From positions 3,375 to 67,374 of the forward strand of contig JBJHCY010000005.1 in the NCBI GenBank assembly GCA_050486265.1: a DNA stretch of 64,000 nt. Direction: 5' to 3'. Origin of the DNA: Phycisphaerales bacterium (GTDB taxonomy: Bacteria; Planctomycetota; Phycisphaerae; Phycisphaerales; UBA1924). The translations under genes were made by a program, and so were the position numbers. The notes beneath the pieces were generated by a model. The model saw only the letters and a program-made list of their open reading frames with translations, made no database searches and had not been told where the DNA came from. This document shows, one piece after another, positions 13,192-60,682 of the stretch (positions within the stretch are counted from its first letter, which is position 1; each line of letters begins with the position of its first letter).

Positions 13192-13192
13192 C

Positions 13193-36595: not shown

Positions 36596-36644
36596 TCACA
36601 GGATGATCTCGGGCTGACCGCCAAGCGGCAGAGAAAGGACCCCC

Positions 36645-39347: not shown

Positions 39348-40577
39348 TCAGGGTCCTACGAACGCGTCCTCAACCCCCGCGGGGGTCTCGAAACCGTTCA
39401 GCGGGCTCGCGCGGCGGCCGGTCAGGTGATCGAGCACGATCTCGATGTCCCGGGGCAACCAGATGTTGTCCCCGTTGGAGAGCTCGGGGGTTTCGAGCCA
39501 CTGCACCGATCCGTCGTTGAACAGCACATTCTGCCCGCGACGGCCGTGGTTGTGCGAGTTCTCCATGGGGTGGATCGGCTGACCCAGGACCGCCCGCTGC
39601 ACCACCGGCGAACGGTCGGCCAAGAGCACCACCGAGCCGGGGCTCGACCAGCTGGGCCGGTCGTTGCCGAACATGATCCGATAGCTGTACGACACCTCGT
39701 CCAGCCGGCGCCAGTCGCGGGCGGCAGGGTCTGTCAGACGCGTCGGGGCGACCCGGTTGCCCGGGCAGGCCAGGCTCTCCATCCCGACATACTCCTGGCG
39801 CGTCAGCTCGAACAGGTTCGCCGAGTTGGACTCCTCGGGACGCCCGACATTCCACCACAGCCGCCCCGGAAGACCGGCGCTCGCCATCGGCAGCGCGTCG
39901 CGGTTGGCGCTCGCGTACGAGCCCATCGCGAACGCCGAGGCCCGCATGTTGCTCGCGCAGATCGTCTGGCGGCTGTCCTCGCGCACCGCGTTCATCACCG
40001 GCCAGAGGACCGAAGCCCCCACCACCAGCGACGCGGCGACCGCCACGAAATCCCAGAACCGCACGCGACCGCCACGCCCGCGCCCGATCGGGATCGGCTC
40101 GAGCGCAGCCTCGTCGACCTCGCGGACACGGGCCATCGTCCGATCGATCAGGCCCGATGGCGCAGATCCGCCCGTCGTCACCATCGAGGCCAGCCGCTGA
40201 TGGACCGCCGCACGCTGCTTCAGGCTGCCCGGCGCTCTGGCGGGGTCGAACCCGGCGAGCACCCAGGCGTCCAGGGCGTCGGCGTCGGCGGGGGTCAGCT
40301 CGGGCTCGCGACGCTCCAGCTCGATCCGGCGCGCCACGCGGACCATCGTCACATCCGCGAGCGTTCTGTCTTCGGGCAGCGGGGCGCCGTCGAGGGCCCC
40401 GAGGATCGTCATCAGGCGGGAGGCGCGGCCTTCGTCCTCGGCGTTCCAGCCCGAGCCGACGAGGCGGTCGACCGCGTCGCGGTCTTCGGGCGAGAGCTGG
40501 GCGCCCAGATCGAAGGGAAACGGCCCGTCCGAAAAGTCGTCGTCACCGAAATTGTTGGTTGGTCCGTCGGTGCTCAT
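39348..40577 (-). CDS. Putative anti-sigma factor with a pseudopilin-like DUF1559 / H-X9-DG-type periplasmic domain
   Basis: ATGA overlap with the upstream ECF sigma gene. ~173-aa cytoplasmic part with a duplicated L(S/T)PxDxDAxD motif, then a single TM (FWDFVAVAASLVVGASVLWPVMNAV), then DSRQTICASNMRASAFAMGSY... and HNHGRRGQNVLFNDGSVQWL, matching the planctomycete DUF1559 pattern. Confidence 0.7.
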   Translation of the reverse strand: MSTDGPTNNFGDDDFSDGPFPFDLGAQLSPEDRDAVDRLVGSGWNAEDEGRASRLMTILGALDGAPLPEDRTLADVTMVRVARRIELERREPELTPADADALDAWVLAGFDPARAPGSLKQRAAVHQRLASMVTTGGSAPSGLIDRTMARVREVDEAALEPIPIGRGRGGRVRFWDFVAVAASLVVGASVLWPVMNAVREDSRQTICASNMRASAFAMGSYASANRDALPMASAGLPGRLWWNVGRPEESNSANLFELTRQEYVGMESLACPGNRVAPTRLTDPAARDWRRLDEVSYSYRIMFGNDRPSWSSPGSVVLLADRSPVVQRAVLGQPIHPMENSHNHGRRGQNVLFNDGSVQWLETPELSNGDNIWLPRDIEIVLDHLTGRRASPLNGFETPAGVEDAFVGP

Positions 40578-41227
40578 CGGCTGTCGCTCCTGAACACATC
40601 CTCGCCGCCGGGACCGAGACCGGCTTCCTTCGAGACCCGCTCGAAATGGCCCGCGAAGCTCGCGACCGCGGCGTGCAGCCTCGACTTGACCGTCCCCAGG
40701 GGGATCCCAAGATCTTCGGCGATCTGGGCGTAGCTGAGCCGCTGGAAGTAGGCCAAGAGGAGGATCTCCCTGAGCGTCGGGCTCATGCGTCCGAGGGCGG
40801 CCTGCACGAGCCTGTCGGTTTCCTGCTTGTCGAGCCCGGCGTCCGGCGAGGGGGTGTCGATCTTCATCAGGTCCACAAAGGTGGCCCCGCGAGACCCGTC
40901 GTCGCCGGATACCGGGGCGGACAGATCCATCGTCTGCCGCCGGCCCTTCTTACGCAGGTAGTCCCTCCCTTTGTTCGCCGCGATCGTAAAGAGCCAGGGC
41001 CGAAAACGACGAGAGGCGTCGAAACTGTGCGCCGAGACATGCACCTGCAGGAAGGCCTCCTGAAAGACATCCTCCGCGGCCACACGATCGCCGAGCAACC
41101 GGTACAGGAACCTGTACAGGTCGTCGTGGTAACGCTCGATGAGGGTCCGGAAAGCCTCCGTGTCCCCCGCTCGATAGCGTTCGAACAGTTGCTCGTCGGT
41201 GGTCTGTCCCACGCGTGCATTGTCCAT
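40574..41227 (-). CDS. ECF-type RNA polymerase sigma factor
   Basis: Region 2 (DLYRFLYRLLGDRVAAEDVFQEAFLQV...FRPWLFTIAANKGRDYLRK) and region 4 HTH (REILLLAYFQRLSYAQIAEDLGIPLGTVKSRLH). Start re-set to MDNARVGQ at 41227. Confidence 0.88.
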   Translation of the reverse strand: MDNARVGQTTDEQLFERYRAGDTEAFRTLIERYHDDLYRFLYRLLGDRVAAEDVFQEAFLQVHVSAHSFDASRRFRPWLFTIAANKGRDYLRKKGRRQTMDLSAPVSGDDGSRGATFVDLMKIDTPSPDAGLDKQETDRLVQAALGRMSPTLREILLLAYFQRLSYAQIAEDLGIPLGTVKSRLHAAVASFAGHFERVSKEAGLGPGGEDVFRSDSR

Positions 41228-41471
41228 CGGTTCAGAGGGCCCCGCCCCGGGAATCGCGGGCGGAACCGAAAATCGTGCTGAATGAAACGCCCGAGTTACT
41301 ATCAGGTATCGAACAACGGTCGGCTCGGCTTTGTTCCGGCCCGTGTTGTACCGGGCAATGGCGCCCCGAGCGTCGGGCGCTGGAGCATTGGGGACTTTCA
41401 CGCCCGATATCACGCCTGCCTCGCGCCCGCCGGATGCAATGCGACGCCGCCCCGGGCGTTGTGCATGACAG

Positions 41472-42086
41472 ATGTCGGGGGTCGCGATGAGTTCTGACGG
41501 CGCGAGACCCGCCCCGGCCCCCGATGATCCGTCGCTGCTCGCCAGAGCTGCCGGCGGCGACGAAGGGGCGTGGCGGTGCGTGGTCGCGTCGTACGCCCCC
41601 CGGGTCTTTGCGCTGGTGCGGAGCCGGTGCCGTGACGACGACCTCGCCGAGGAGATCACCCAGGCCGTGTTTGTGACCATGGCGGAAAAACTCGGGGCGG
41701 GCGGGTACGACGAGCGGGGCCGCTTCGAGGCCTGGCTTTTCAGGGTCGCCATGAACCGCTTCCGCGACCACGCCCGCAAGGCCAAACGCCAGGCTTCGCC
41801 CGCCGACCCCGCCTCGCTCGACGCCGGGCCGGACACACGCCCCGGCCCCTCCGACCGCGACGCGGCGGACCTCGCCCGCCTGCGCGAGGCGCTGGAGACC
41901 CTGAACGAGGCGGACCGCGAGATCGTCCACCTCCGTCACCACGCCGGTTTGAGCTTCAAACAGATCGCCGAGGTCTTGCAGGAGCCGCTCGGCACGCTTC
42001 TGGCCCGCCACCACCGGGCCCTCGCCAAGCTCCGGAAGGTGCTCGGCGAACCCGATGACCACCCAAACGCGGAGCACGCGTCATGA
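41472..42086 (+). CDS. ECF-type RNA polymerase sigma factor (second, divergent)
   Basis: ITQAVFVTMAEKL...FEAWLFRVAMNRFRDHARK and REIVHLRHHAGLSFKQIAEVLQEPLGTLLARHHRALAKLR. Confidence 0.85.
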   Translation: MSGVAMSSDGARPAPAPDDPSLLARAAGGDEGAWRCVVASYAPRVFALVRSRCRDDDLAEEITQAVFVTMAEKLGAGGYDERGRFEAWLFRVAMNRFRDHARKAKRQASPADPASLDAGPDTRPGPSDRDAADLARLREALETLNEADREIVHLRHHAGLSFKQIAEVLQEPLGTLLARHHRALAKLRKVLGEPDDHPNAEHAS

Positions 42087-42535
42087 CCAGCACACCCGAA
42101 CCCACCCGCCGCTCGCTGGAAGACCGCCTCGACGCGCTGGGCGCTCTCGAACGCAACGCAACACCCCGCGGCTTGGCGTCGCGCATCGCGGACGCCTCTG
42201 CGCCGAGCCTTCGTGCCGAACGCCCCGCGGTGGTCGCCCGCATCGGGCCCGTGTGGGCGTCGCGTCTGGGCGCTTTGGCCGCGAGCCTGGCCCTGCTCAT
42301 CGGGGTCGCGGCCTTGGTCGTCAGCGTCCGACCGGGCTCGGAGATCGACGCACCCGCGCCGGTGATGGCGACCGTCGCGGCGGACATGGAGCTCTGGCTT
42401 TCGCTGGAGTCCATGCTCAGCGATCCGCTCGCCAGCCGCTTGGACGCCTTGTACGCCGAATCGACGGCGCTGGAGTCCTACGACGAAGCAGACCTGTTCA
42501 CGCTCGAAATGCTGAGCGTACTGGAGTCGATGTGA
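42083..42535 (+). CDS. Putative single-pass anti-sigma factor
   Basis: ATGA overlap with the preceding sigma gene and one TM helix (LGALAASLALLIGVAALVV). No motif-level identification. Confidence 0.5.
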   Translation: MTSTPEPTRRSLEDRLDALGALERNATPRGLASRIADASAPSLRAERPAVVARIGPVWASRLGALAASLALLIGVAALVVSVRPGSEIDAPAPVMATVAADMELWLSLESMLSDPLASRLDALYAESTALESYDEADLFTLEMLSVLESM

Positions 42536-43947: not shown

Positions 43948-44853
43948 TCAGGCGTCGGGGTCGTCTTCCGGCTCGGCACGGTCCGGGCGGACCCATCGCC
44001 CCTCGCGAAAGAGCGTCCGGGCCGGATCGATCCGCATCGCCGAGGCGAGTTCCTCGGGATCTGGGTCGCGCAGGGGCATCCCCCCGTCGGTGGCGAGCTG
44101 CGACGACCAGGTCGCGTGCTCGGCGTTCAGCAGCGCGAACTCGGTGCGGAGGTGGGCGGTGTACAGGTCGGGCGTCATGTCGGGCCCGGGGTCGCCTTCA
44201 CAGGTTCGGCAGAGGACCGCCCGCCCCCGCCCGTCGCGTGCGAGCCTCGAGTTTCGACACTCCGGGCAGGGCCAGAGCTCCGCTTGCCGCTGAAGATCAA
44301 ACAGGCCGCCCCGCGCCCCGAAGGGGTGCAGCAAACGGTCGTGGCGGGAGAGCGCCGCGAACACACTCGGGTCTTCGAGCAGCGCGACTGCCGCACGCCC
44401 GTTGCCCGACCTGACATACCCGATCGCCTCGGCCGCCCTGAGCGCCGTCCGGGGCGACGGCGCCCCGGGATCGACGCGGGACCAGTCGGGTGAACCGTGG
44501 CGCGGGTCCATCGCGGCCGCCAGGGCCCGGAGCCACCGGCGCTCGCGTTCGTGCGTCGCCAACGCCGCAAGCCCGATGCACGCGCTGGCGCTCAACCCCG
44601 TCTCGCCCCGCTCCCTGCCCAGCTCGAAGGCGAGCACGAAGAGCCGTCGCGCCGTCGCCAGCAATTCCGGGGCCCTCCGGTCGGCGTCCTCGGCGAGGGC
44701 CGCCATCTCCTCGGCCAACGCGAAGTAGCCGGCGGGATCGTCCGGAGAGAGCGAACCGAGCCGATCGGCCCACGGCGCCAGCGGATCGGCCGACGCGACC
44801 TGAACACCCAAGGCCAGCAGCAGGAACGCCGTTGTAAGCAGCCTTGACATCAT
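43948..44853 (-). CDS. Hypothetical secreted protein with a CxxC...CxxC motif (last gene of the ExbBD operon)
   Basis: Start MMSRLLTTAFLLLALGVQVASA (signal peptide) overlaps the upstream stop (ATGATG/TGA). Contains CPECRNSRLARDGRGRAVLCRTCEG. Confidence 0.6.
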   Translation of the reverse strand: MMSRLLTTAFLLLALGVQVASADPLAPWADRLGSLSPDDPAGYFALAEEMAALAEDADRRAPELLATARRLFVLAFELGRERGETGLSASACIGLAALATHERERRWLRALAAAMDPRHGSPDWSRVDPGAPSPRTALRAAEAIGYVRSGNGRAAVALLEDPSVFAALSRHDRLLHPFGARGGLFDLQRQAELWPCPECRNSRLARDGRGRAVLCRTCEGDPGPDMTPDLYTAHLRTEFALLNAEHATWSSQLATDGGMPLRDPDPEELASAMRIDPARTLFREGRWVRPDRAEPEDDPDA

Positions 44854-47711
44854 CCGCCTCCGATCAGATCGAGCCTGATCCGCCAGAGCCTCGCGATCGC
44901 CCGCTCGCACGCGGCGACCTGTTCGAGCACATGCCCGGCGGACCGGCGGTCCTCCTCGAACTGCTCGAGCACCGCCGCGACCTCCGGCGCCACGCCCGGG
45001 CGCTCGGCGCTGACGACCAGGGCCATCGCCTCGCAGATCGCGATCTGGTACGCAAGGAACGCTTGCACCGGCCCGTCGGCGAGATTCAGCCTCGCGTTCA
45101 TCCGCGCGTCGATCGATCCGGGCGTGAGCCCGCCCGGCACGCTGACGAGCGCCGACGAGGGCGCACGCCCGGCCAGCGAGAGCCAGTAGTGGTGCAGCAG
45201 CTCGGCGCCGTCCATCGGGTTGGGTTTTTCGCCCAGCGAGACCGCGTCCTCGGGATCATCGATGACGCTGATCTCGGCGTACGCCTCGGCGATGACCCCC
45301 GAGAGCCGGTCGAAGGCGACGCCCTCGCGCTCCTCCGAAGCCATCTGGAGCAGACGCTGCACGATCGCCCGCCTCGCATCGAACATGAACGACGGGTCGT
45401 CGGGCCGGGGCAGCATCTCGCCAGCCGCCATCTCGATGAGCTCGGCGTTGCGCCTTGTCAGCGGCGCGTCGGGCAGAACCTCCAGGAACGCGTTGACCAC
45501 GCGGGGCTGGCCCACGACGCGCTCGACGAGTTCCCCCGCCGCGATCCGCACGCGGGGCGAGTCGCCCCGCAACGCCTCGGCAACAACGATGTCCGCCTCG
45601 ATCCAGCCGAGGTTGTGCGGGGCCCTCGACAGCTCTTCGAGCAGCGCGACACGCGCGTCGATCCGCCGACCGACCTGGAGGTAGGCCACCGCCCAGCGGT
45701 GCTCGTCGCCGCCGTAAGCGAACAACCCGTCCAGCCTGCCCGATCGCGATCCGGTTCGGGCTCGCTCGACGACGCGCCCGGTCTGTTCGAGCACGATCCC
45801 CGCCTCGGCGTACCGGCCCGCGAAGCGGAGGGCGGAAGCGAGATTCAGCCTCGCGAGCGCCGCGGCCGAGGCGAGGTGATCCTCGGGCGAGATCGCTCCC
45901 TCGGACCGTTCGATGAAGTTGCGCGAGTACCCGGCCAGCGAGTAGCCGAGTTCGTCCGCCCGCTCGGCCCGGTCGAGCCCCCACAGGCGGGCGAGCGATT
46001 CGCGGATCCTGGCCCGGTCGGCCTGCATCGCCTGCGACGACGGGATCTGAGCGGGGCCGACCATGCTGTCGGGCGCGCGTTCAGAGAGCGCCCGCATCAG
46101 CGTGCGCACGAGCGTCGCGTCGGCCCGCGATGACCCCGCGATCCGCAGCAGCCAGAGCCTCGCCTCAGACCCGTCGCCCCAGCGGACCTCCGGGGCGAGC
46201 GAACGCACCGCGTGCACCCCGACCCTCGCCCGCTCCCCTTCGCCCCCGGCGAAGATGATCGCGTCGAGCGCGCCGAGCACGACCCTGTCGCGCTGCGTCC
46301 CCGGCGAAGGCTCGATCGCGACCACGCACGCAAGCCAAGCCTCCCACGCGCGGATCTCCCGGTCGCTTTCCGACCTCGAAGCCGGCGGGGCGGCGATCGA
46401 CATCTTCAGCCCCAGACGGGACGCCCCGGCCATCGCCCCGCGCTCGAACCCGGCGCCGGGCGCAAAGCCGGTGTCCGCGCCGGCGCCGATCAGCGCCTCG
46501 TCGATCGCCAGGCGGGCGGAGGCGGGCAGGTCGCGATCCGAGCGCAGCCGGGCGAGCATCCCCGACGCCCAGATCGCCCGACGCATCTCGACCTCCCCAG
46601 GCGCTCGCTCGGCCCGCAGCACATCGAGGTGCTCGGCGATCGCCCCGATCGCACGCGCCGATGCGTTGGGCCAAGAGCCGGCCCGGTGCACGAACCCGAC
46701 GACCTCCGCGCGGATCGCGACGCGTTGATCGGCGCGATGGTCGAGCCAGTGGGCCGAGGCGAGGCCGACCCCACGCCGGAACTCAGCCGACGCCGCCCGG
46801 GCGTCGAGTTCGAGCATCGAAGCCGCGTCGGCCAGCATCGAGCGGATCTCCGTCGCATCGGGCACGGGCCGGGCGGGGGGCGGCTCGGCCTGCCCGTTGA
46901 CGGGCGCACCGGGCGCCTGGGGCTGTGCCGGGCTCGGCGCGGCTCCGGGCGAGGGCGTCGGCGTCTGCGGGGCCGTCTGAGCCTGCTGCTGAGGCGAAGC
47001 CGCCCCGAGACGGTCGGCGAGAACCACGACCGAGACCGCCGCGATCGCCCCGAGCCCGACCACCGCGACGCCGAGGAGCAGGATCACCTGCCCGACCGAG
47101 CCGGGCTTGTGCGATTCGTCCATCCACGCCGGAGGCGGCGCGACCCCGGCGCCCCGGCTTTCCTGCGCCGGCTCGGCCTCGCCCGGGTCGGTTGGTTCTG
47201 GCTCGCGCCCGAGCGAGGACTCGGCAATGAGCCCGGCCGGAGGCGATCGCGAACCCGTGTCGCTCCTCGAAGATGCCACGATCGACTCGACGAGGCGCTC
47301 AACGGAGATGCCGTGCGTCTGCGCCAGGAGGGAGAGCCGATGGAGCGCAGAGGCGTTGTGGACCCCGCCGGCCAGCAACAGCATCGCCTGACGCTGCAGC
47401 TCGTAATCGATCATGTCACCGAAATGTTCTTCGCCCGCGCCCTCCGACCAGCGCTCCAGCAGGGCCCGCTGCACCTGCGGGTCCATGAGCTGGGCCGCCG
47501 CGGCGTGCAACGCCAGGCGCGCGTCGTCCGCCTCTGGCGTCTGCGAGTGCGGGTGGCGGTCGATCTCGGCGAGGCGACGCTCGAGCGCCTCGAAAACGGT
47601 GTCTTCGTGGGCCGGCTCAACGGGCAGCGCGAGCAGCCCGAAGGGACCGGCGCTGACCGCCTTCTCGCCGAGGAACCGCCTCGCCGGTGCGTCGTAGCCT
47701 CTGCCCGGCAT
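44850..47711 (-). CDS. Large single-pass membrane protein: J-like N-terminal domain, TM, Pro-rich linker, ~670-aa helical periplasmic domain
   Basis: Start re-set to MPGRGYDAP at 47711 (1-nt overlap with the upstream stop). TM GQVILLLGVAVVGLGAIAAVSVVVLA at aa ~207-231. Linker SPQQQAQTAPQTPTPSPGAAPSPAQPQAPGAP. No family recognised for the C-terminal domain. Confidence 0.65.
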   Translation of the reverse strand: MPGRGYDAPARRFLGEKAVSAGPFGLLALPVEPAHEDTVFEALERRLAEIDRHPHSQTPEADDARLALHAAAAQLMDPQVQRALLERWSEGAGEEHFGDMIDYELQRQAMLLLAGGVHNASALHRLSLLAQTHGISVERLVESIVASSRSDTGSRSPPAGLIAESSLGREPEPTDPGEAEPAQESRGAGVAPPPAWMDESHKPGSVGQVILLLGVAVVGLGAIAAVSVVVLADRLGAASPQQQAQTAPQTPTPSPGAAPSPAQPQAPGAPVNGQAEPPPARPVPDATEIRSMLADAASMLELDARAASAEFRRGVGLASAHWLDHRADQRVAIRAEVVGFVHRAGSWPNASARAIGAIAEHLDVLRAERAPGEVEMRRAIWASGMLARLRSDRDLPASARLAIDEALIGAGADTGFAPGAGFERGAMAGASRLGLKMSIAAPPASRSESDREIRAWEAWLACVVAIEPSPGTQRDRVVLGALDAIIFAGGEGERARVGVHAVRSLAPEVRWGDGSEARLWLLRIAGSSRADATLVRTLMRALSERAPDSMVGPAQIPSSQAMQADRARIRESLARLWGLDRAERADELGYSLAGYSRNFIERSEGAISPEDHLASAAALARLNLASALRFAGRYAEAGIVLEQTGRVVERARTGSRSGRLDGLFAYGGDEHRWAVAYLQVGRRIDARVALLEELSRAPHNLGWIEADIVVAEALRGDSPRVRIAAGELVERVVGQPRVVNAFLEVLPDAPLTRRNAELIEMAAGEMLPRPDDPSFMFDARRAIVQRLLQMASEEREGVAFDRLSGVIAEAYAEISVIDDPEDAVSLGEKPNPMDGAELLHHYWLSLAGRAPSSALVSVPGGLTPGSIDARMNARLNLADGPVQAFLAYQIAICEAMALVVSAERPGVAPEVAAVLEQFEEDRRSAGHVLEQVAACERAIARLWRIRLDLIGGG

Positions 47712-50425
47712 CAGCCGCCCCCCCCGCCGGTTCTGAAGGCGTCGAGGCGTCGGTCGAGCTCGCGCAGGCGTTCGCCCCACGGCTCGGGGCCGAAGCTTGG
47801 GTGCAGGGCCTTGTGCTGGTCCATCACCAGCGCCGCCCGCTCGGGCGCGGTGCGCATCAGCAGACGGATCGACTCGTGCCTCGCCCGGAACCAGTCGGGC
47901 GAGTTCGCGTCGAGACCGGTCAGAAGCCTGCGCCACGCGTCGAGCGCACGCTCGTGCTCGTCCGCTGCTTCAGCGAGCTCTGCGAATCGCAGCAGCATCG
48001 GGGCGCTGGCGCGCCCAGCGTCGACCATGCGTCCGTCGACCTCCAACGCCGTGTCGCGCATCTGTTCGTCGGCACGCTCGCGCCACAGCGTCGCGGCGAC
48101 ATCGGCCACGCGAGCCGAGATCGCGCCGAACTGGCGGTCGCCCGGGCCCCCGCCCTTGGACATCGAGATCGAGAGCAATCTGCGCCCTGACTCGACCGCC
48201 TCGCGCCCGGACTGAACATCGCTCCGATCGCGCTGGAACCTCGCCAGGGCGTCGCGGAAGAGCAGGCCTTCGGCGGCCTCGGCCAGCGGGTTATCCCCCT
48301 GCCGCAACCGGCGCCCCGCCTCGCGGGCCGATTCGACATCCCCCTCGGCCAGAGCGACCTGCACATCCCGGTACAACAGTTCGTCGGCGAAGGGCGCGCT
48401 GTCGACGCCCGCGATCGAAACGATCTCGCGCAGCATGGTCAGCGAGCGCCGGGCGCGCACCGGGTCGGGGTTCTCTGCCGCGAGCATCGCGTCGAGCATC
48501 TGGCGCAGCACGATCACGGCGCGGGTGCCGTGCTCGTTGAGCCCGGATCCGGTCGCCTCCCGCATCGCTCGTCGCTCGTGCTCGACGACGCCCTCGGCGA
48601 TCTCAAGAAACCGTGACGCGGCGAACTCGCGCTCCGCGCCCGAACTGTCGCGGTACACCCGGTAGAGCAGGTTGGCGGCCTGGCGCTCGGCGACCGGACG
48701 CAACGACGAGGAGCGATCGACCGCAAGAAGCGTCTCCGCGGCGGTGAGCGGGTCGGCCGAGTCGCCCGCGGTCCGACGGACCAAGAGCACCGCCGCCCGC
48801 TCGCGCCTTGGGTACTCGCCGATGTAGAGCGTCGCGAGGGTGCGCAATCGCCGGTCGACGCCGGCGCCTGGCATCTCAGCGAGACGCTCGAGCGCGAGCA
48901 CCGCGTTCCAGAGCGCCTCCTCGCGCAGCGGCTCGCCGGGCTCGGAACGGAAGACCCGCTCGAAGCGGTCGGCGGCCTGGAGGTACTCGCCCGCGCGGAA
49001 GTACGCGAAGGCCAGACGCTGGCGGGCCGACATCGCCTCGCGCTCGAAGTTCTCGGCGTCGCCGGTCGCGAGCGCCCGCTCCAGGGCGCGGGCCGCGTCG
49101 CGGAATGCGGTGCGCGACGCGGCGCTCTCGATCGCTTCGTCGCCGACGGCGGCGAGCTCTTCGGCTTCCTCGTACGCTCGAAGACCCTCGACATAGCGGG
49201 CGATGAACCCGTCGCCGATCACCGGCGTGCCCGTGTAGCGGTCGACAAGGTCGAGCACCTGCCCGATCTCGCCCATCGCGATCAGCTCGCCGATCCCGAT
49301 CTCCGCGAGCTTGAGGATGAGCGTCGACACGCGCGGGTCCTGCGAGTCGAACTCGGCCGCTTCCAGCGCGAGCACCGCCAGCAGCCTCGCCTCGCGGACG
49401 GAGAACGGGGGCTCGGAGGCCCGCGAGGCCCGCGAGGCCGCCGCCAGCCGCTGGTCGACGAGCTGCTCGACCCGGGCCCAACGCGGCCTCGTCGAAGTCA
49501 GGACGCTCAGCCGACGCTCGAACAACGCCGGGCGGATCGGCTCGGGCAGCTCGGGGTGGCGCTCGATGGTGTCCAGCCAGGCGATGGCGTCAGCGTCGTC
49601 GCCCCGGACCGCGTACGAGAGAGCGACACCGATCGCGGCCCTGGCGACCACCTCCCTGGCGAGCATGTCGCGTGAGAGGCGTTCGAGCGTCGGGATGCGT
49701 CCGTCGGGCGCGCCCAGCAGCCACCCGAACTCCTGGAGCGCCGCCGTCGCCGACTGCGTGCTCCCGAGGATCAGCGCGAGGTAGTACTCGCTCCATCCGG
49801 CGAAGAATCTGGCCTCCGAGTGGATCGCAGCGACCTCGGACCTCCGCTGGCGGATGTGTTCGACCTCCTCGCCCCTGCCCCGCTGCTCGAGCCGGTCGAG
49901 CTGGTCGATACGCCGAGAAGCGGAAGCCGCGATGGCCCCGAACCCCCGCCGGGCCTCCCGGAGCGAAAGCACCGCCTCCTCCCGCTCCTGCTCGGTCGCC
50001 AGGCGGACACGCCAGCGTTCGGCGAGCTCCTCGGCCGCGAGGTACCGGGTCCGCTCGATCGTCACGCGCAGGGGGTGGTGGTCTTGGTCTGGGATCTCGC
50101 GGAGGATGTCGTAGGAGGCGGCGAGGATCCGCTCCCGCTCCTCGGCGCTCGACGCGTCGCGCATCCGGATCGCGTAAAGGCGTCCGAGCCGCTCTGCGAT
50201 CTCGGGGCGCTCGCCCGCGGGCGCGCGGTCGAGCCGATCGCGGAGCTGCACGATCATCAGGTCCTTGATGCCCAGGCGTTCGAGGAACGACTCGACACGG
50301 TCGTCGGGCGAGACACGCACCGGCCCGGTATCTCGATCCTGCGCAACCCCGCACGGCGCAGCGAGCAGCAGCGCCGCCAACGGCGCCAGCCACGCGTGAG
50401 ACCGAATGTCAGTCCGCCGGGACAT
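47711..50425 (-). CDS. Large secreted all-helical TPR-like repeat protein
   Basis: Signal peptide MSRRTDIRSHAWLAPLAALLLAAPCGVAQ. 904 aa, Ala/Leu/Arg/Glu-rich helical-repeat composition. 17-nt overlap with the exbD stop. Ends in GGGGG. Confidence 0.65.
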   Translation of the reverse strand: MSRRTDIRSHAWLAPLAALLLAAPCGVAQDRDTGPVRVSPDDRVESFLERLGIKDLMIVQLRDRLDRAPAGERPEIAERLGRLYAIRMRDASSAEERERILAASYDILREIPDQDHHPLRVTIERTRYLAAEELAERWRVRLATEQEREEAVLSLREARRGFGAIAASASRRIDQLDRLEQRGRGEEVEHIRQRRSEVAAIHSEARFFAGWSEYYLALILGSTQSATAALQEFGWLLGAPDGRIPTLERLSRDMLAREVVARAAIGVALSYAVRGDDADAIAWLDTIERHPELPEPIRPALFERRLSVLTSTRPRWARVEQLVDQRLAAASRASRASEPPFSVREARLLAVLALEAAEFDSQDPRVSTLILKLAEIGIGELIAMGEIGQVLDLVDRYTGTPVIGDGFIARYVEGLRAYEEAEELAAVGDEAIESAASRTAFRDAARALERALATGDAENFEREAMSARQRLAFAYFRAGEYLQAADRFERVFRSEPGEPLREEALWNAVLALERLAEMPGAGVDRRLRTLATLYIGEYPRRERAAVLLVRRTAGDSADPLTAAETLLAVDRSSSLRPVAERQAANLLYRVYRDSSGAEREFAASRFLEIAEGVVEHERRAMREATGSGLNEHGTRAVIVLRQMLDAMLAAENPDPVRARRSLTMLREIVSIAGVDSAPFADELLYRDVQVALAEGDVESAREAGRRLRQGDNPLAEAAEGLLFRDALARFQRDRSDVQSGREAVESGRRLLSISMSKGGGPGDRQFGAISARVADVAATLWRERADEQMRDTALEVDGRMVDAGRASAPMLLRFAELAEAADEHERALDAWRRLLTGLDANSPDWFRARHESIRLLMRTAPERAALVMDQHKALHPSFGPEPWGERLRELDRRLDAFRTGGGGG

Positions 50426-50828
50426 AGCTCACCTTTGTGAAGCCCGCCCTTTTGCAGGCGCTGAGCGCCTTGGCCGCCGCGTCGACCGACGCACGGTCGG
50501 TCACCCGTACGAACACGCCCCCCTCCTTGGGCAATGGCGCCAGCCACGCGACGATCGCGTCGGGGTCTTCAGAGGCCCGCTCGCCCAGACGGTAGAGCGT
50601 TCGGCCGTTCCGGCGGTCGACCGTCACGATCATCGGCAGCAGATCCGCGGCGCTCGACGGGCCCTCCGCCTCGGCCTGCAGCCCGGACGCCAGATCCTCC
50701 TCTGGCATAGTGAACGACGCGGTGAGGATGAAGTAGATCAGCAGAAGGAAGACCACATCGATCATGCTCGTCATGTGGCGCTGTACGCCCTCTTCGTCGT
50801 CGTACTTGTGCTCACGCGTGAACTTCAA
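50409..50828 (-). CDS. exbD: ExbD/TolR family biopolymer transport protein (second copy)
   Basis: HMTSMIDVVFLLLIYFILTASF (ExbD TM signature) and a periplasmic domain. TTG start overlapping the upstream stop (TTGA). Confidence 0.85.
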   Translation of the reverse strand: MKFTREHKYDDEEGVQRHMTSMIDVVFLLLIYFILTASFTMPEEDLASGLQAEAEGPSSAADLLPMIVTVDRRNGRTLYRLGERASEDPDAIVAWLAPLPKEGGVFVRVTDRASVDAAAKALSACKRAGFTKVSYVPAD

Positions 50829-51259
50829 GGCCCGCCCCCCGCCGGCGCCTCGGTCGCCAGCCTCCAGCCTCGGACTCCGAGCGATGAGAGCGTCGAGGCC
50901 ACCCTGTTGGCGTGCGCCGCGTCGAGAGAGCGATCCGCCCGCACCAGGACAGTCACCTGCGAGGCGTCGCCCCCTGCCTGGTTGATCTCGGCGCGCACCA
51001 CCGACGCGAACCGTGCCAGGTCGACCGGCTCACGCTCGATCAGCATCGTCCCGTCGGGCGCGATGTCCAGCACCACCATCGCCGGACGCTCGGCGCTCAG
51101 CGGGTCGCCCCGCTCCTCGGGCAGGTCCAGCGGCGTGCGCACCAGCGTCGTGAACTGCGAGGTGTACAGGAAGAAGATGATCAGCTGAAACACCACATCG
51201 ATCATGGGGGTCATGTTGAACCCCCCGACCTTTCTTGGTTTGCGCTGAACGAAGTTCAC
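50825..51259 (-). CDS. exbD: ExbD/TolR family biopolymer transport protein (first copy)
   Basis: NMTPMIDVVFQLIIFFLYTSQF, then VLVRADRSLDAAHANRVASTLSSLGV. GTG start overlapping the exbB stop (GTGA). Confidence 0.85.
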   Translation of the reverse strand: MNFVQRKPRKVGGFNMTPMIDVVFQLIIFFLYTSQFTTLVRTPLDLPEERGDPLSAERPAMVVLDIAPDGTMLIEREPVDLARFASVVRAEINQAGGDASQVTVLVRADRSLDAAHANRVASTLSSLGVRGWRLATEAPAGGGP

Positions 51260-51990
51260 CGCGGCTCGCCCCTCTGCGCCGTCGGCGCCTGCTGGGCCCC
51301 CGCCCTGGGCTTGCGGGCCGCGTTCTGGTCGAGGTGCTGGGCGAGTTCTTCGGTCACCTCCGCGACCTTGGACGCCAGCGTATCGATCCGCCCTCGCAGG
51401 TAGGCATAAGCCGCGGTGCACGGGATGGCGACCAAGAGACCCATCACGGTGGTCATCAGCGCCGTGGAGATGCTTCCCGCGAGGCGGTCGGGCTTGGCGA
51501 CGCCTTCTGCGGCGCTGAGCGTATCGAACGCCCCGACCATGCCGACGACCGTCCCGAGCAGCCCGAGCATCGGCGCGATCGACGCGACCACGCCGATCGT
51601 GTCGTTGGAACGCTGCAGGCGGGAGACCTCCATCTGCCCCGACTCCTCCAGCGCTCCCTTCAGCTCAAGAAAACCGAACGGCGATCGAGCGCAACGCGTC
51701 AGCGCCGAACGGAACACCCGCGAGAGAAACGACTCGTTGTCGGGCTGGGAGCAGAACTCGATCGCGCCCTTCACATCGCCCTTGCGGAGCCTCGAATCCA
51801 GCCCCAGCACAAAGTCCCGCGGCGCCATCCGCTCCATCCGCACACGCACAAGCTGCGTCACGATCAGCCCCACGGCAAACAGCGAGAGCGCGATGATCAC
51901 ATACCCGATCCCACCGCCGCTCTGGATGTACTCCAGCAGCGTCTTGCCCCCCTCCGCGTCGGTGTTCGCCGCGATCAGCATCCGGTTCAT
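51256..51990 (-). CDS. exbB: MotA/TolQ/ExbB proton-channel family protein
   Basis: IASIAPMLGLLGTVVGMVGAF...STALMTTVMGLLVAIPCTAAYAYLRGRID, three TM segments. ATGA overlap with the upstream gene. Confidence 0.9.
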   Translation of the reverse strand: MNRMLIAANTDAEGGKTLLEYIQSGGGIGYVIIALSLFAVGLIVTQLVRVRMERMAPRDFVLGLDSRLRKGDVKGAIEFCSQPDNESFLSRVFRSALTRCARSPFGFLELKGALEESGQMEVSRLQRSNDTIGVVASIAPMLGLLGTVVGMVGAFDTLSAAEGVAKPDRLAGSISTALMTTVMGLLVAIPCTAAYAYLRGRIDTLASKVAEVTEELAQHLDQNAARKPRAGAQQAPTAQRGEPR

Positions 51991-53186
51991 CGATAGTCCT
52001 GTCCGCCCCCGGCTTGGGGGCTGTTCATCGTCACGCCGCCGAGCGGCCCTCGGCCTCCGGCGGCCTCATCTCCCGCCGGGTGGCCCGGGTATCTCCTGCG
52101 GAGCTCGGCCCGCAAGAGACCCGCGGTCTCGCCACGCCCCAGTTCGTCCATCGCCTCGGCCGCCTCGGCCAGGCAGAGGCCCGCGAGGAACGGCTGCTCG
52201 TCGCCGAACCTCGCCGGGAGGTGCAGCATCATCACCACACCCCGCAGCCGCTCGGTCTCTTCGTTCTCCCGCACCAGCGACCGCCCGATCGCGGCGTAGA
52301 TCCACGCCTCCAGCCACGCGGGCGTGGGCGAACGCCCGGCTCGCGAACGCTCCAGCCTCTGGCGCAGGCGGTCTCTGTGCTCCGCCCGCTCTGCGCCGGT
52401 CCCGTGCTGGGCGAGCACGAGGTCGGCGATCAGACGCACGCTCGGATCGTCGCTGGTGTTCGGCCGCTCGGGCCGACCGCCGACGGTCGCAACCGCGGCG
52501 TACCTGTACCACGCGCCCAGCAGCGCCGCCCGTTCGTCGGTCGGTTCGACGCCCGAGGGCAGGGTGATCCCTCGTTCTGCAAGCTGGCGGACGCCGGTCG
52601 TCTCGGTCCAGATCGGCGGGATCGCCGGGCAGAGCCCCGTCTCCGGGTCGACGACCGCCGGCACGCCCTCGAACACCGACCGCCCCCCGCCGCCAGCCTG
52701 CAGCAGCATCAGCCAAGGCCCGATCGCCGACGCGTGCGCGCCCCGCCGCAGCCTGCAGCGCAGCGCCCCTTCCGCAACCGCCTGCGCCGTCGGACCCAGC
52801 CGCCCTGCGTACACGCCGAACAGCTCCTCGAACCCCGCCTCGGCCAGCACGAAATCGCCCCGCTCCAGACGCTGACGCGAGCGCCACGCCCTGTCGGCCA
52901 ACCCCAAAAACTCCGCGGCCCGTTCCGCGCCGGGCCCGCTCAGGCGGACGACACGGTCCCAGCCAATCTCAATCGTCGCCCCGTCGACTTGCAAAGAAAG
53001 CGCCTCGATCGACGCCTCTTGGACCTCGCCCGCCAGGGGCTCGAACCGCCCGAGCAGACGCACCTCCGCCCGATCGGGATCCGAAGCCTCCGCAACGCCG
53101 GCCTCCCCCCGAGGCTCGGCGCCGAGCACGCCGGCGCCCGCACACAGCAGGAGGCCGCACAGACCCGCCGTCATCGCCCGCTTCAA
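51987..53186 (-). CDS. Hypothetical secreted protein
   Basis: (L)KRAMTAGLCGLLLCAGAGVLGAEP signal-like N-terminus. TTG 53186 (TTGA overlap with the vWA stop, same junction motif as at 50825) or ATG 53174. No family recognised. Confidence 0.55.
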   Translation of the reverse strand: MKRAMTAGLCGLLLCAGAGVLGAEPRGEAGVAEASDPDRAEVRLLGRFEPLAGEVQEASIEALSLQVDGATIEIGWDRVVRLSGPGAERAAEFLGLADRAWRSRQRLERGDFVLAEAGFEELFGVYAGRLGPTAQAVAEGALRCRLRRGAHASAIGPWLMLLQAGGGGRSVFEGVPAVVDPETGLCPAIPPIWTETTGVRQLAERGITLPSGVEPTDERAALLGAWYRYAAVATVGGRPERPNTSDDPSVRLIADLVLAQHGTGAERAEHRDRLRQRLERSRAGRSPTPAWLEAWIYAAIGRSLVRENEETERLRGVVMMLHLPARFGDEQPFLAGLCLAEAAEAMDELGRGETAGLLRAELRRRYPGHPAGDEAAGGRGPLGGVTMNSPQAGGGQDYR

Positions 53187-54211
53187 GGCCCACCCCCGCC
53201 CGCGGAGCGGTCCAGCGGCACATAGGTGTAAGTCCCGCCCGACATTTCCGCGATCCGGCGCATCATCGCCTCGCCCGAGCGGTCCTCGAAGCAGATCGCC
53301 TGCACCGGCACCGTCGGTCTTCGGTTCTGCGCGATGATCGCGTCGGCCTCCGCCTCGGCGAAGATCCCGTCGGTCATGAAGTAGATCGCGTCGGGCCTCG
53401 GGCTGAGCGTAAAGATGATCTCGAAGCCGGTCAGGGGGTTGGTGCCCCCGTAGACCTGGATCGTGTCGATCGCCCGCTCGGCCCACCTCTTGCCGGACCT
53501 GTCTGCCCGCATCCACCGTGTCCTGCCGCCAAGAACGGTCGCCTCGTGCGAGAACAGGACGATGACGAACTCCGCCCGTTCGTCGAGGGCGTCCACCGAC
53601 TCCTTGAGCGCCCGCCGGACCGCCTCGATCCGCGGGCCCATCATCGAGCCGGAGATATCGACCAGGAAGACAAACCGGCGTCCCCGCGCCTCGACGCCCA
53701 GGAAGCTCGCCGCACCGTCGCCGGCGCCCCCGACATCGAAGCCGCCGGCGCCTTCGCTCCCGCCCCCCGAGCCGCTCAGGGTCAGCGTCGAGAGATCCGC
53801 CAGTTCCGAAGCCAGGTCCATACCCGCGGGGTCGTCCAGCGCGGGGATCTCGGCCGCGTCGGCCTGCTCGGCGATCTCGACCGTCGGCTCCGCGAGATCG
53901 AGCGCCTCGGCCTCGATCGCGTCGAGTTCGGACTGGCTCATCACCGCCAGCTCGAAGACCTGCTCGCCCGGCGCCCCCCCGATCTGGCCGGACGGCTGCT
54001 GGATCGCGATCAGCGCCGCAATCAACATCAGCACGATGTGCAGCACGATCGTCGCGACCGCACCGACCACCGACGCCCGCTTGAGGTAGCGGATCGCTCG
54101 CTCCTTAAAATCCTCCGGCGGGGCGTCTGGGCCCGCTTTGCCGGTGTGTCCGGGGAGCGGCTGAGCCGCCGCGTCCTGCGGCGATCCGGATTGTCGCGTA
54201 AGGTTGGCCAT
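53183..54211 (-). CDS. Single-pass membrane protein with a C-terminal von Willebrand factor A domain
   Basis: TM VVGAVATIVLHIVLMLIAALIAI, acidic linker, then vWA with an intact MIDAS pattern (VFLVDISGSMMG ... YGGTNPLTG ... IYFMTDG). ATG 54211 chosen; GTG 54232 is an alternative. Confidence 0.8.
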   Translation of the reverse strand: MANLTRQSGSPQDAAAQPLPGHTGKAGPDAPPEDFKERAIRYLKRASVVGAVATIVLHIVLMLIAALIAIQQPSGQIGGAPGEQVFELAVMSQSELDAIEAEALDLAEPTVEIAEQADAAEIPALDDPAGMDLASELADLSTLTLSGSGGGSEGAGGFDVGGAGDGAASFLGVEARGRRFVFLVDISGSMMGPRIEAVRRALKESVDALDERAEFVIVLFSHEATVLGGRTRWMRADRSGKRWAERAIDTIQVYGGTNPLTGFEIIFTLSPRPDAIYFMTDGIFAEAEADAIIAQNRRPTVPVQAICFEDRSGEAMMRRIAEMSGGTYTYVPLDRSAGGGGP

Positions 54212-60648: not shown

Positions 60649-60682
60649 ATGCTTGGGCGCGTCGATCGGTTCGCGTTCCGTC

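What the first reader, a model, noticed from the sequence alone, without database searches (positions are those of the whole stretch)
43948..54211. ExbB-ExbD-ExbD motor inside an eight-gene overlap-coupled operon with no recognisable TonB/TolA partner
Seen: eight consecutive minus-strand genes whose stops and starts overlap at every junction. Order and junctions: vWA 53183-54211 (TTGA), unknown secreted 51987-53186 (ATGA), exbB 51256-51990 (GTGA), exbD 50825-51259 (TTGA), exbD 50409-50828 (17-nt overlap), 904-aa TPR-like 47711-50425 (TGATG), 953-aa membrane protein 44850-47711 (ATGA), 301-aa secreted CxxC protein 43948-44853. Established: ExbB/ExbD, TolQ/TolR and AglR/AglQS stators convert proton-motive force into work on a partner anchored by an N-terminal TM helix (TonB, TolA, GltG/J). 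Seen: I cannot find a TonB C-terminal or TolA-like domain in any of the eight products. Two products nevertheless have the transducer-like layout of cytoplasmic N-terminus, one TM, a low-complexity linker and a periplasmic domain. One ends in a vWA domain with an intact MIDAS; the other has a Pro-rich linker followed by a ~670-aa helical domain of unknown family. Inference: a PMF-energised envelope machine with non-canonical transducers and large helical-repeat scaffolds, possibly undescribed.
Basis: partly seen in the sequence, partly recalled or inferred. Interest (0 to 1): 0.7.

Follow-up and report, generated by a model that had tools for sequence, protein, structure and literature searches.

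The report
Proton motor driving a vWA puller
An eight-gene operon of a Phycisphaerales (Planctomycetota) bacterium encodes a proton-driven membrane motor, a TonB-like anchored protein that ends in a metal-binding vWA domain, and four lineage-specific periplasmic partners; the motor-plus-vWA core was proposed from genomes in 2025, but the partners found here are new and the job of the machine is unknown.

Summary
Eight minus-strand genes (54211/54232 to 43948) overlap at all seven junctions, and the order and overlaps recur across Phycisphaerales genomes.

The claim of no recognisable transducer is only half right. No TonB_C or TolA domain exists. However, the vWA protein (g1) has a transmembrane helix with a near-invariant S-x3-H motif, the motor-binding signature of TonB and TolA. 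It also has a conserved post-helix "motor box" and an invariant MIDAS.

The g1 family profile matches the Tichowtungia "vWA force transducers" described in PMC12204202 (2025). ExbB and the two ExbD paralogues match that system's motor one-to-one. The core is therefore a member of a recently proposed, experimentally untested class.

New here are four Phycisphaerales-restricted partners:
- g2, a small TPR-like exported protein.
- g6, a 904-aa TPR solenoid.
- g7, a 953-aa single-pass protein with an ARM/HEAT-like periplasmic solenoid and no TonB-like helix.
- g8, a zinc-ribbon-like exported protein.

Natural g2–g6 and g7–g8 fusions link them. About a quarter of loci lack the motor genes.

Verdict: a new variant of a known kind, function unknown, interest moderate.

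The parts
53183..54211 (-). g1: vWA force-transducer candidate. 342 aa from ATG 54211, or 349 aa from GTG 54232. Layout: cytoplasmic N-terminus, one TM helix, about 110-aa linker, vWA domain.
   Evidence: VWA_3 7e-15. Family HMM scores 40-57 bits against Tichowtungia transducers 1 and 2 and 48-53 bits against their metagenomic relatives.
54002..54076 (-). g1 TM helix (about residues 46-70). The S-x3-H motif is T54...H58 in the window, at 54038-54052.
   Evidence: S[LIVM]xxH is present in every aligned orthologue, including loci without motor genes.
53924..53959 (-). g1 conserved post-TM segment VFELAVMSQSEL (residues 85-96), the candidate motor box.
   Evidence: It is a conserved island in a variable linker. 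Ala89 is kept in 51/51 loci with a cis motor and 9/14 without.
53222..53674 (-). g1 vWA domain with MIDAS. DISGS lies at 53645-53659; the other MIDAS residues are T257 and D281.
   Evidence: D185, S187, S189, T257 and D281 are invariant in 67/67 sequences.
51987..53186 (-). g2: exported 399-aa protein with a small N-terminal beta region and a TPR-like helical part. The conserved motif AWRAR.RLERGD has its RGD at 52854-52862.
   Evidence: No Pfam hit for the window copy. 6/68 orthologues hit TPR families. RGD is present in 64/68. g2 is fused to g6 in P0015 and in loci L035, L058, L026 and L052.
51256..51990 (-). g3: ExbB/TolQ-like proton-channel subunit, 244 aa.
   Evidence: MotA_ExbB 1e-28. 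T147, T181 and P190 are invariant in 55/55. It scores 148-153 HMM bits against the Kiritimatiellota vWA-linked motor, versus 44 bits to solved TolQ and about 31 bits to ExbB.
50825..51259 (-). g4: ExbD/TolR-like paralogue 1, 144 aa.
   Evidence: ExbD 1e-18. D21 is invariant in 56/56. It scores best on the first ExbD of the Kiritimatiellota loci.
50409..50828 (-). g5: ExbD/TolR-like paralogue 2, 139 aa.
   Evidence: ExbD 7e-14. D24 is invariant in 60/60. It resembles g4 only in the TM region. It scores best on the second ExbD of the Kiritimatiellota loci.
47711..50425 (-). g6: exported 904-aa all-alpha TPR-like solenoid.
   Evidence: AF2 model has pLDDT 88, with helices from residue 40 to 899. 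Foldseek returns long TPR scaffolds. 49 homologues of about 900 aa were found, and all named ones are Phycisphaerae.
44850..47711 (-). g7: 953-aa single-pass inner-membrane protein. Cytoplasmic helical domain at residues 7-149 (47265-47693). TM at 206-235 (47007-47096). Pro-rich linker at 46857-47006. Periplasmic ARM/HEAT-like solenoid at residues 286-946 (44874-46856).
   Evidence: AF2 model has pLDDT 79. Foldseek gives only weak ARM/HEAT matches. No His in the TM helix in 0/64 orthologues. At least 1000 cluster representatives exist in metagenomes. g7 is fused to g8 in P0300 and P0324.
43948..44853 (-). g8: exported 301-aa helical protein with a CxxC...CxxC zinc-ribbon-like knuckle at residues 196-218 (44200-44268).
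   Evidence: The motif WPCPEC..LCPTC.GNPGP is conserved. Matches to zinc-ribbon families are weak.

Best explanation
This is the Phycisphaerales form of a vWA-type periplasmic force-transduction system.

Shown by sequence:
- An inner-membrane stator is encoded by an ExbB/TolQ-like subunit and a heterologous pair of ExbD/TolR-like subunits. All retain the residues associated with the proton pathway.
- g1 is anchored by a TM helix carrying the TonB/TolA S-x3-H motif. This is followed by a conserved short segment, a flexible linker of about 90 aa, and a vWA domain with an invariant MIDAS.
- The stator and g1 are homologous to the motor and vWA transducers proposed for Tichowtungia and other PVC bacteria.

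Inferred:
- The stator uses proton flow to pull on or rotate g1 through its TM helix, as ExbBD does with TonB.
- The MIDAS of g1 grips an acidic residue of a partner in a metal-dependent way.
- The partners are the co-translated periplasmic proteins. g2 and g6 form one unit. g7, anchored in the inner membrane and reaching into the cytoplasm, forms another unit with g8. Together they make a large alpha-solenoid scaffold that the motor remodels or moves.

The cellular role is not established. The system is single-copy, present across the order and sits among housekeeping genes. This favours an envelope-maintenance role over nutrient import.
For: Motor:
- Pfam assigns MotA_ExbB and two ExbD proteins.
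- g3 T147, T181 and P190 are invariant in 55/55; g4 D21 in 56/56; g5 D24 in 60/60.

Transducer:
- S-x3-H is present in the TM helix of every aligned g1 orthologue.
- The post-TM segment is conserved. Its Ala89 is invariant in 51/51 loci with a cis motor but only 9/14 without, Fisher p = 2e-4.
- The MIDAS residues are invariant in 67/67.

Homology to the published class:
- The g1 HMM scores 56.5 and 39.7 bits against Tichowtungia transducers 2 and 1. The alignment runs from the TM helix through the FFG motif into the vWA domain.
- In metagenomic relatives L082-L087 the g3 HMM scores 148-153 bits.
- g4 scores best on the first ExbD and g5 on the second, in the same gene order.
- PMC12204202 describes this class: SHLS helix, motor box, vWA C-terminal domain, a tolQ-like gene, two heterologous tolR-like genes and a TPR gene.

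Coupling of the eight genes:
- Overlapping junctions are conserved.
- No terminator signal above background lies inside the operon.
- The order is conserved in 40 of 59 loci with enough flank. All five non-motor genes gave tblastn hits in the loci with full flanks.

Partners:
- g2–g6 fusions occur in P0015, L035, L058, L026 and L052.
- g7–g8 fusions occur in P0300 and P0324, with no internal signal peptide.
- Confident solenoid models were obtained for g6 and g7.
Against: - No vWA transducer has been tested experimentally anywhere. PMC12204202 states that no phenotypes are known.
- 14 of 59 loci with full flanks lack exbB-exbD-exbD. No motor gene lies within 10 kb in the 20 motor-less loci. 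The losses fall in at least four places of a g6 tree. The periplasmic module can therefore persist without a cis motor.
- Only the S and H of the SHLS motif are conserved. The L and second S are not.
- g2, g6, g7 and g8 have no detectable counterpart in the Kiritimatiellota loci. Their role as the load is therefore inference.
- No outer-membrane or peptidoglycan-binding component is encoded in the operon.
- Flanking housekeeping genes are also syntenic: AA kinase in 66/80 loci and tRNA_bind in 52/80. Gene order alone is weak evidence.
Confidence: 0.6

Rival explanations
1. The ExbB-ExbD-ExbD genes are an ordinary Ton- or Tol-type motor. Its real transducer, a TonB or TolA, is encoded elsewhere. 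The vWA and solenoid proteins form a separate passive periplasmic or adhesion complex that is merely co-transcribed.
For: - The motor genes are absent from about a quarter of loci, while g1, g2, g6, g7 and g8 stay.
- The best NCBIfam match of g3 is TolQ.
- Accessory TPR proteins accompany Ton systems in other bacteria (my own knowledge, e.g. Vibrio TonB2 TtpD).
Against: - The S-x3-H motif is invariant in the g1 helix.
- The motor box is relaxed where the cis motor is gone.
- g3 is much closer to vWA-linked motors (148-153 HMM bits) than to solved TolQ (44 bits) or ExbB (31 bits).
- The same motor-plus-vWA pairing occurs in a different phylum with different accessory genes.
- No TonB_C or TolA hit in any of the eight operon products or in the 30 other window ORFs scanned.
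Confidence: 0.15
2. The 953-aa protein g7 is a second, or the main, motor-coupled transducer. It has a cytoplasmic N-terminus, one TM helix, a Pro-rich linker and a periplasmic domain.
For: - The topology and Pro-rich linker resemble TonB: 5-20 prolines in the 70 residues after the TM helix in most orthologues.
- Weak compositional matches to VirB10/DotF-like regions.
Against: - The TM helix is not conserved, and 0/64 orthologues have a His in it.
- No conserved post-TM segment was seen in the family alignment; the region is variable and modelled as disordered.
- No counterpart exists in the Kiritimatiellota vWA-motor loci.
Confidence: 0.08
3. It is a Bat-like (MoxR/vWA/TPR aerotolerance-type) or anti-phage Zorya-like system rather than a force transducer.
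For: - vWA plus TPR proteins occur together, with a MoxR AAA gene 5.5 kb away at 59722-60648.
- g3 gives a weak ZorA match at E = 1e-3.
Against: - MoxR lies within 10 kb in only 17/80 loci. In the window it is on the other strand, beyond housekeeping genes.
- No DUF58 is present.
- No PADLOC hit for seven of the eight proteins, and no ZorB/C/D.
- The single N-terminal S-x3-H helix of g1 is not the BatA/BatB layout (my own knowledge of Bat proteins).
Confidence: 0.03
4. The eight genes are functionally unrelated neighbours, kept together by general genome synteny in this order.
For: Flanking housekeeping genes are also syntenic.
Against: - Seven overlapping junctions are conserved across species.
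- Natural g2–g6 and g7–g8 fusions exist.
- All the non-motor families appear restricted to the same lineage and co-occur.
Confidence: 0.03

Closest known systems
vWA force transducers with TolQ/TolR-like motors (Tichowtungia aerotolerans and other PVC bacteria; PMC12204202, 2025, a bioinformatic proposal)
   Same: - N-terminal TM helix with S-x3-H, a post-TM box, a linker of about 100 aa and a vWA C-terminal domain.
- An ExbB/TolQ-like gene plus two heterologous ExbD/TolR-like genes in the same order.
- A roughly 900-960-aa TPR protein in the cluster.
- Sequence homology of all four core proteins.
   Different: - Gene order. Here the vWA gene comes first and the large TPR gene follows the motor. 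In L087 the order is TPR, a 261-aa gene, exbB, exbD, exbD, vWA, and L083 has a second vWA gene.
- There is one transducer here, not two.
- The MIDAS is invariant here but absent from the Tichowtungia proteins, which read FILDANKLM.
- The vWA protein is 342 aa here versus about 475 aa.
- g2, g6, g7 and g8 have no detectable homologue there.
Ton system (ExbB-ExbD-TonB)
   Same: - A 5:2-type motor family with conserved channel Thr and Asp residues.
- A transducer anchored by a helix with the Ser/His motif and a post-helix box.
   Different: - No TonB_C domain.
- No TonB-dependent receptor found among the 30 other window ORFs scanned.
- The linker is Gly- and acid-rich rather than Pro-rich.
- The output domain is a MIDAS vWA domain.
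Tol-Pal system (TolQRA-TolB-Pal-CpoB)
   Same: - g3 and g4 score best on the TolQ and TolR models.
- A TPR protein sits in the cluster, as CpoB does.
- The genomic setting is housekeeping-like and single-copy.
   Different: - No TolA domain III, TolB beta-propeller or Pal/OmpA domain in the operon.
- Scores are far below the TolQ and TolR equivalog cut-offs.
- Planctomycetes are reported to lack Pal (supplement of PMC12204202).
Agl-Glt gliding machinery of Myxococcus (AglRQS motor, GltG/J, vWA adhesin CglB)
   Same: A TolQR-type motor, TPR-rich partners and a vWA domain with MIDAS in the output path (PMC12204202).
   Different: - No Glt homologues. GltJ scores E = 0.12 on a low-complexity stretch only.
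- Here the vWA domain is on the inner-membrane-anchored transducer itself, not on an outer-membrane adhesin.
PflA/PflB periplasmic TPR scaffold of the Campylobacter flagellar motor
   Same: A large periplasmic TPR protein associated with a MotAB-family stator. Chain 9hmf_K, from the entry titled 'Periplasmic scaffold of the Campylobacter jejuni flagellar motor', gave the highest TM-score to the g6 model (0.25). Naming this scaffold PflA/PflB is my own knowledge.
   Different: This is an analogy only. The TM-score is low, there is no sequence similarity, and no flagellar genes are present here.

Membership tests
vWA force transducer (PMC12204202) | N-terminal TM helix with the SHLS motif, especially the conserved His | tested here: met
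   S-x3-H is present in every aligned g1 orthologue (T54/H58 in the window). The L and second S of the motif are not conserved.
vWA force transducer (PMC12204202) | Predicted motor/stator box (a beta-strand) in the disordered region after the TM helix | tested here: inconclusive
   A conserved segment V-E-[FL]-A-V-[MV]-[ST]-E-x-E-L lies at residues 85-96. Ala89 tracks the presence of a cis motor. No structure of g1 was predicted, so the strand itself is not shown.
vWA force transducer (PMC12204202) | C-terminal vWA fold after a linker of about 100 residues | tested here: met
   VWA_3 at residues 180-329, E = 7e-15. The linker spans about residues 70-180.
vWA force transducer (PMC12204202) | Synteny with a tolQ-like gene and two heterologous tolR-like genes | tested here: met
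   g3, g4 and g5 lie in the same operon. g4 and g5 resemble each other only in the TM region. They are one-to-one with the Kiritimatiellota pair.
vWA force transducer (PMC12204202) | Sequence homology to the seed proteins (Tichowtungia transducers 1 and 2) | tested here: met
   The g1 family HMM scores 56.5 and 39.7 bits. BLASTP gives 24% identity at E = 6e-7 in a two-sequence search. The HMM scores 48-53 bits on L082-L087.
vWA force transducer (PMC12204202) | Co-occurring TPR gene | tested here: inconclusive
   TPR-like g6 (904 aa) and g2 are present. Neither is detectably homologous to the 959-aa TPR or the 261-aa protein of L087 (hhalign probabilities 1.4% and 0.1%).
vWA force transducer (PMC12204202) | Predicted docking of the TM helix on the motor pentamer through the His | not testable with these tools
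   Only single-chain prediction was available.
TonB family | TonB C-terminal domain (PF03544 or related) | tested here: not met
   No hit in any of the eight proteins at E <= 1.
TolA / Tol-Pal | TolA domain III, with TolB and Pal in the locus | tested here: not met
   No TolA, TolB or OmpA/Pal hits in the operon or its immediate neighbours.
MotA/TolQ/ExbB proton channel | PF01618 domain with the conserved channel Thr residues | tested here: met
   99.7 bits against a cut-off of 22.9. T147 and T181 are invariant in 55/55. Their equivalence to E. coli ExbB T148/T181 rests on motif position and my own knowledge.
ExbD/TolR | PF02472 domain with a TM Asp | tested here: met
   g4 scores 68.1 bits and g5 52.5 bits against a cut-off of 25.4. 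D21 and D24 are invariant.
TolQ / ExbB / TolR / ExbD equivalogs (NCBIfam) | Score above the equivalog cut-off | tested here: not met
   TolQ scores 79 against a cut-off of 221. ExbB scores 44 against 206. TolR scores 42 against 127. This is a distinct subfamily.
J-domain (for the g7 cytoplasmic domain) | DnaJ profile match and an HPD loop | tested here: not met
   0 of 64 orthologues hit PF00226. The g7 N-domain HMM scores at most 4.6 bits on five J domains. HP is conserved, but the D is not.
Zorya / other defence systems | ZorA/ZorB plus effector genes | tested here: not met
   Only a weak ZorA match on g3 (E = 1e-3) and nothing else.
Bat (MoxR-DUF58-BatA-E) | Adjacent MoxR and DUF58 genes | tested here: not met
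   No DUF58 is present. MoxR lies within 10 kb in 17/80 loci only.

The most novel reading that the evidence does not exclude
The operon encodes a Phycisphaerales-wide housekeeping envelope machine that takes the place of Tol-Pal. In this reading, a proton-driven vWA transducer grips (through its MIDAS) and moves a giant periplasmic alpha-solenoid scaffold made of g2·g6 and g7·g8. The scaffold is linked through the cytoplasmic domain of g7 to the cell interior. It coordinates the inner and outer membranes during the FtsZ-less binary fission of this lineage.

Planctomycetes are reported to lack Pal. FtsZ-less fission in Phycisphaerae is my own knowledge. Nothing here tests a division role.
Probability: 0.1. 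Interest if true: 0.8.

Novelty: new variant of a known kind. Interest (0 to 1): 0.5.

Why it matters
TonB and TolA were long the only known ways to carry inner-membrane proton energy across the periplasm. vWA-ended transducers were proposed in 2025 from genomes alone, and nobody knows what they pull on.

This Phycisphaerales operon offers concrete candidates for the load:
- It has four co-translated, lineage-restricted periplasmic proteins.
- Two pairs of them are found fused in nature.
- Its transducer has a fully conserved metal-binding site, unlike the published seed proteins.

That makes the question directly testable. Suitable approaches are complex prediction, pull-downs, and MIDAS and His mutants. 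At least one complete genome labelled as an isolate carries the operon (L068, Phycisphaerales bacterium ac7).

The motor-less lineages are a natural experiment on how far the periplasmic module depends on the motor.

If the machine turns out to be an envelope or division system, it would bear on how Planctomycetes manage their outer membrane without Pal and FtsZ.

Tried and rejected
- TonB_C or TolA domains: none in Pfam or NCBIfam at E <= 1.
- g7 as a second SHLS-type transducer: rejected, because there is no His and no conservation in its helix.
- J-domain reading of the g7 cytoplasmic domain. It was prompted by the conserved motif "LLGL...HP...TPEADEVRLALHAAAAQLLDP" and a helix–HP-loop–helix model. 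It is not supported by Pfam on 64 members or by an HMM against five J domains. It could not be tested by fold, because only whole-model searches were possible.
- Profile searches of the g2, g7 and g8 families against PDB sequences: nothing significant.
- Homology between g6 and the 959-aa TPR protein, or between g2 and the 261-aa protein, of the Kiritimatiellota locus: not detected.
- Defence-system (Zorya) and Bat/MoxR readings: rejected.
- Promoter and terminator scan: no signal above the shuffled background.
- Rfam: no RNA family in the window.
- Look-up of P0001 on its source contig failed.
- The RGD of g2 as MIDAS ligand: kept only as an idea. The motif sits where a TPR helix pair has its G-D turn, so it may be purely structural.
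Full report
**Observation**

The window is about 65-74% G+C. Eight minus-strand ORFs run from 54211 (or 54232) down to 43948 without internal stops. I read every junction in the sequence:
- TTGA, ATGA, GTGA and TTGA give 4-nt overlaps.
- exbD2 and the 904-aa gene overlap by 17 nt.
- TGATG gives a 1-nt overlap.
- ATGA gives a 4-nt overlap.

The operon is bounded upstream by a divergent amino-acid-kinase gene. Downstream, after 101 nt, lies a tRNA_bind gene. A consensus scan found no promoter-like sites. Terminator-like sites did not exceed the shuffled expectation.

- g1 is a vWA protein.
- g3 is a MotA/TolQ/ExbB protein.
- g4 and g5 are ExbD/TolR proteins.
- g6 gives only faint TPR signals.
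- g2, g7 and g8 give nothing.
- No product has a TonB_C or TolA domain.

**Distribution and synteny**

The 904-aa protein has 49 homologues of about 900 aa. All named ones come from Phycisphaerae. A pattern scan of one genome per species found relatives in 143 genomes. The 80 loci kept are Phycisphaerales or Planctomycetota MAGs, plus one complete genome labelled as an isolate.

tblastn of the eight products shows the same order on one strand, flanked by the same housekeeping genes. Among 59 loci with enough flank, 40 yielded all eight genes when ORFs were extracted. The junction overlaps are conserved: -4 is modal, and -17/-20 occurs at exbD2/g6.

The flanking genes are syntenic too, so order alone proves little. 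The conserved translational coupling and the fusions described below carry the argument.

**The transducer**

In an alignment of 67 g1 sequences the TM helix carries S-[LIVM]-x-x-H in every aligned orthologue. The window has T54 and H58. This is the first half of the SHLS motif through which TonB and TolA bind their motors (PMC12204202).

About 15 residues after the helix lies a conserved segment, V-E-[FL]-A-V-[MV]-[ST]-E-x-E-L, inside an otherwise variable linker. The vWA domain follows a conserved SFFGVEA motif. Its MIDAS residues D185, S187, S189, T257 and D281 are invariant in 67/67 sequences.

**Comparison with the literature**

A full-text search led to PMC12204202 (Mol Biol Evol 2025). 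[quoted passage not shown] The class has these features:
- A TM helix with SHLS.
- A motor box.
- A domain II of about 100 residues.
- A vWA C-terminal domain.

The class was found in Planctomycetes among other phyla. [quoted passage not shown] Function is unknown and no phenotypes are reported.

The paper's supplement prints the two Tichowtungia transducers. The g1 family HMM scores 56.5 and 39.7 bits on them, aligned from the helix into the vWA domain.

Using those sequences I fetched six metagenomic loci. L087 reads as follows:
- a 959-aa TPR gene,
- a 261-aa unknown gene,
- exbB,
- exbD,
- exbD,
- a vWA gene.

HMMs of the window families gave these scores against the six loci:

| Window family | Target in the metagenomic loci | Bits |
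|---|---|---|
| g3 | ExbB | 148-153 |
| g4 | first ExbD | 67-71 |
| g4 | second ExbD | 49-51 |
| g5 | second ExbD | 51-54 |
| g5 | first ExbD | 32-36 |
| g1 | vWA proteins | 48-53 |

By contrast, g3 scores only 44 bits on solved TolQ and about 31 bits on ExbB. The four-protein core is therefore homologous to the published system.

The channel residues are invariant:
- g3 T147, T181 and P190.
- g4 D21.
- g5 D24.

**What differs**

- The vWA gene comes first here, and the large TPR gene follows the motor.
- There is one transducer rather than two.
- The MIDAS is intact here. In the Tichowtungia proteins it is degenerate (FILDANKLM).
- The HMMs of g2, g6, g7 and g8 find nothing in the Kiritimatiellota loci. 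Profile comparisons with the 959-aa TPR and the 261-aa protein are null.

**The four partners**

*g6.* It has a signal peptide. It is modelled with pLDDT 88 as a continuous alpha-solenoid. Foldseek returns long TPR scaffolds. The highest TM-score is to a chain of the periplasmic scaffold of the Campylobacter flagellar motor, and this is only an analogy.

*g7.* It is modelled with pLDDT 79 as follows:
- a confident cytoplasmic helical domain,
- a disordered stretch,
- one TM helix,
- a disordered Pro-rich linker,
- a 660-aa solenoid.

The solenoid has only weak ARM/HEAT matches. The g7 helix is unconserved and lacks His in all 64 orthologues. I therefore reject it as an SHLS-type transducer. 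The family is large in metagenomes, with at least 1000 representatives, and the top 150 are nearly all full-length.

*g2.* It is exported. Several orthologues have TPR-like matches. It carries a near-invariant RLERGD motif.

*g8.* It is exported and has a conserved CxxC...CxxC knuckle with weak zinc-ribbon matches.

*Fusions.* Natural fusions tie the partners together:
- P0015 is a g2–g6 fusion. The same fused ORF occurs in L035, L058, L026 and L052.
- P0300 and P0324 are g7–g8 fusions without an internal signal peptide.

**Motor-less loci**

Twenty loci have g1-g2-g6-g7-g8 with no exbB or exbD between g2 and g6, or anywhere within 10 kb. They fall in at least four places of a g6 distance tree.

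They keep the S-x3-H motif and the MIDAS. The motor-box Ala89 is invariant in 51/51 loci with a cis motor, but is kept in only 9/14 without (Fisher p = 2e-4, not corrected for phylogeny). This pattern fits a functional link between that segment and the motor. It also shows that the periplasmic module outlives the cis motor. Whether a motor is used in trans could not be tested.

**Mechanism**

Shown:
- The parts list.
- The conserved residues.
- Homology of the core to the published class.
- The coupling of the genes.

Inferred:
- An ExbB pentamer with an ExbD1/ExbD2 heterodimer uses proton flow to act on g1 through its helix and motor box.
- The g1 MIDAS binds an acidic residue of a partner.
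- The g2·g6 and g7·g8 solenoids are the load or scaffold.
- g7 links the assembly to the cytoplasm.

The biological role is unknown. Presence across the order, single copy and a housekeeping neighbourhood lean towards envelope maintenance. Planctomycetes are reported to lack Pal.

**Rivals**

- The motor may serve an unseen TonB or TolA.
- g7 may be a transducer.
- It may be a Bat-like or Zorya-like system.
- The genes may be chance neighbours.

All four are weaker, for the reasons given in the rival entries.

**Verdict**

The core belongs to a class proposed in 2025. The eight-gene Phycisphaerales form is a new variant of that class because of three features:
- its four lineage-specific partners,
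- its intact MIDAS,
- its recurrent motor loss.

Interest is 0.5. It is not a new principle, but it provides specific, testable candidates for what a vWA transducer acts on.

Noticed in passing
L023, L026, L032, L035, L037, L041, L042, L047, L048, L050, L051, L052, L055, L057, L058, L060, L061, L064, L074, L075: In these related loci exbB-exbD-exbD are missing and g2 abuts g6, mostly with a 4-nt overlap. No motor gene lies within 10 kb. The losses sit in at least four places of a g6 tree.
   Followed up: partly
P0015; L035:8672-12652; L058:8762-12727; P0300; P0324: These are natural gene fusions. g2 is fused to g6 (about 1290-1326 aa). g7 is fused to g8 (1231-1248 aa) with no signal peptide between the parts.
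   Followed up: yes
window 52854-52862 (g2 residues 109-111): An RGD tripeptide is kept in 64/68 g2 orthologues, next to a gene for an invariant-MIDAS vWA domain. It may be an integrin-style ligand. It may also be just the G-D turn of a TPR helix pair.
   Followed up: partly
window 47265-47693 (g7 residues 7-149): This is a confidently modelled cytoplasmic helical domain with a conserved motif, LLGL...HP...TPEADEVRLALHAAAAQLLDP. It looks superficially J-domain-like, but no DnaJ profile match was found. Its function is unknown.
   Followed up: partly
L087:4604-10779 and L083: The Kiritimatiellota-type locus reads: 959-aa strong TPR protein, 261-aa protein without any family, exbB, exbD, exbD, vWA transducer. 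In L083 there are two tandem vWA genes.
   Followed up: partly
The true start is undecided.
   Followed up: no
window 3504-19404: A minus-strand ribosomal-protein cluster with L3, L4, L2, L5, L6, S5, SecY, RpoA and L17. The L17 ORF is unusually long at 234 aa.
   Followed up: partly
window 59722-63040: A MoxR-type AAA_3 ATPase gene (+) is followed by a 785-aa FG-GAP repeat protein gene (-). ARAGORN calls a 97-nt tRNA-Ser (cga) at 60392-60488 inside the MoxR ORF. Rfam does not support it, so it is probably a false positive.
   Followed up: partly
window 40574-42535: Two ECF-type sigma-factor genes lie on opposite strands. One is at 40574-41836 (-) as a long ORF; an independent gene call gives 217 aa. 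The other is at 41472-42086 (+). The second is followed by a 150-aa ORF without any family, possibly an anti-sigma factor.
   Followed up: no
window 34937-38087: Two adjacent photolyase-related genes: a DPRP family gene and a FAD-binding DNA photolyase gene.
   Followed up: no
L029 (QWIH01000039.1): This record is titled 'Leptolyngbya sp. PLA1' but carries the complete Phycisphaerales-type operon and flanks. It is probably a mislabelled or mis-binned MAG.
   Followed up: no
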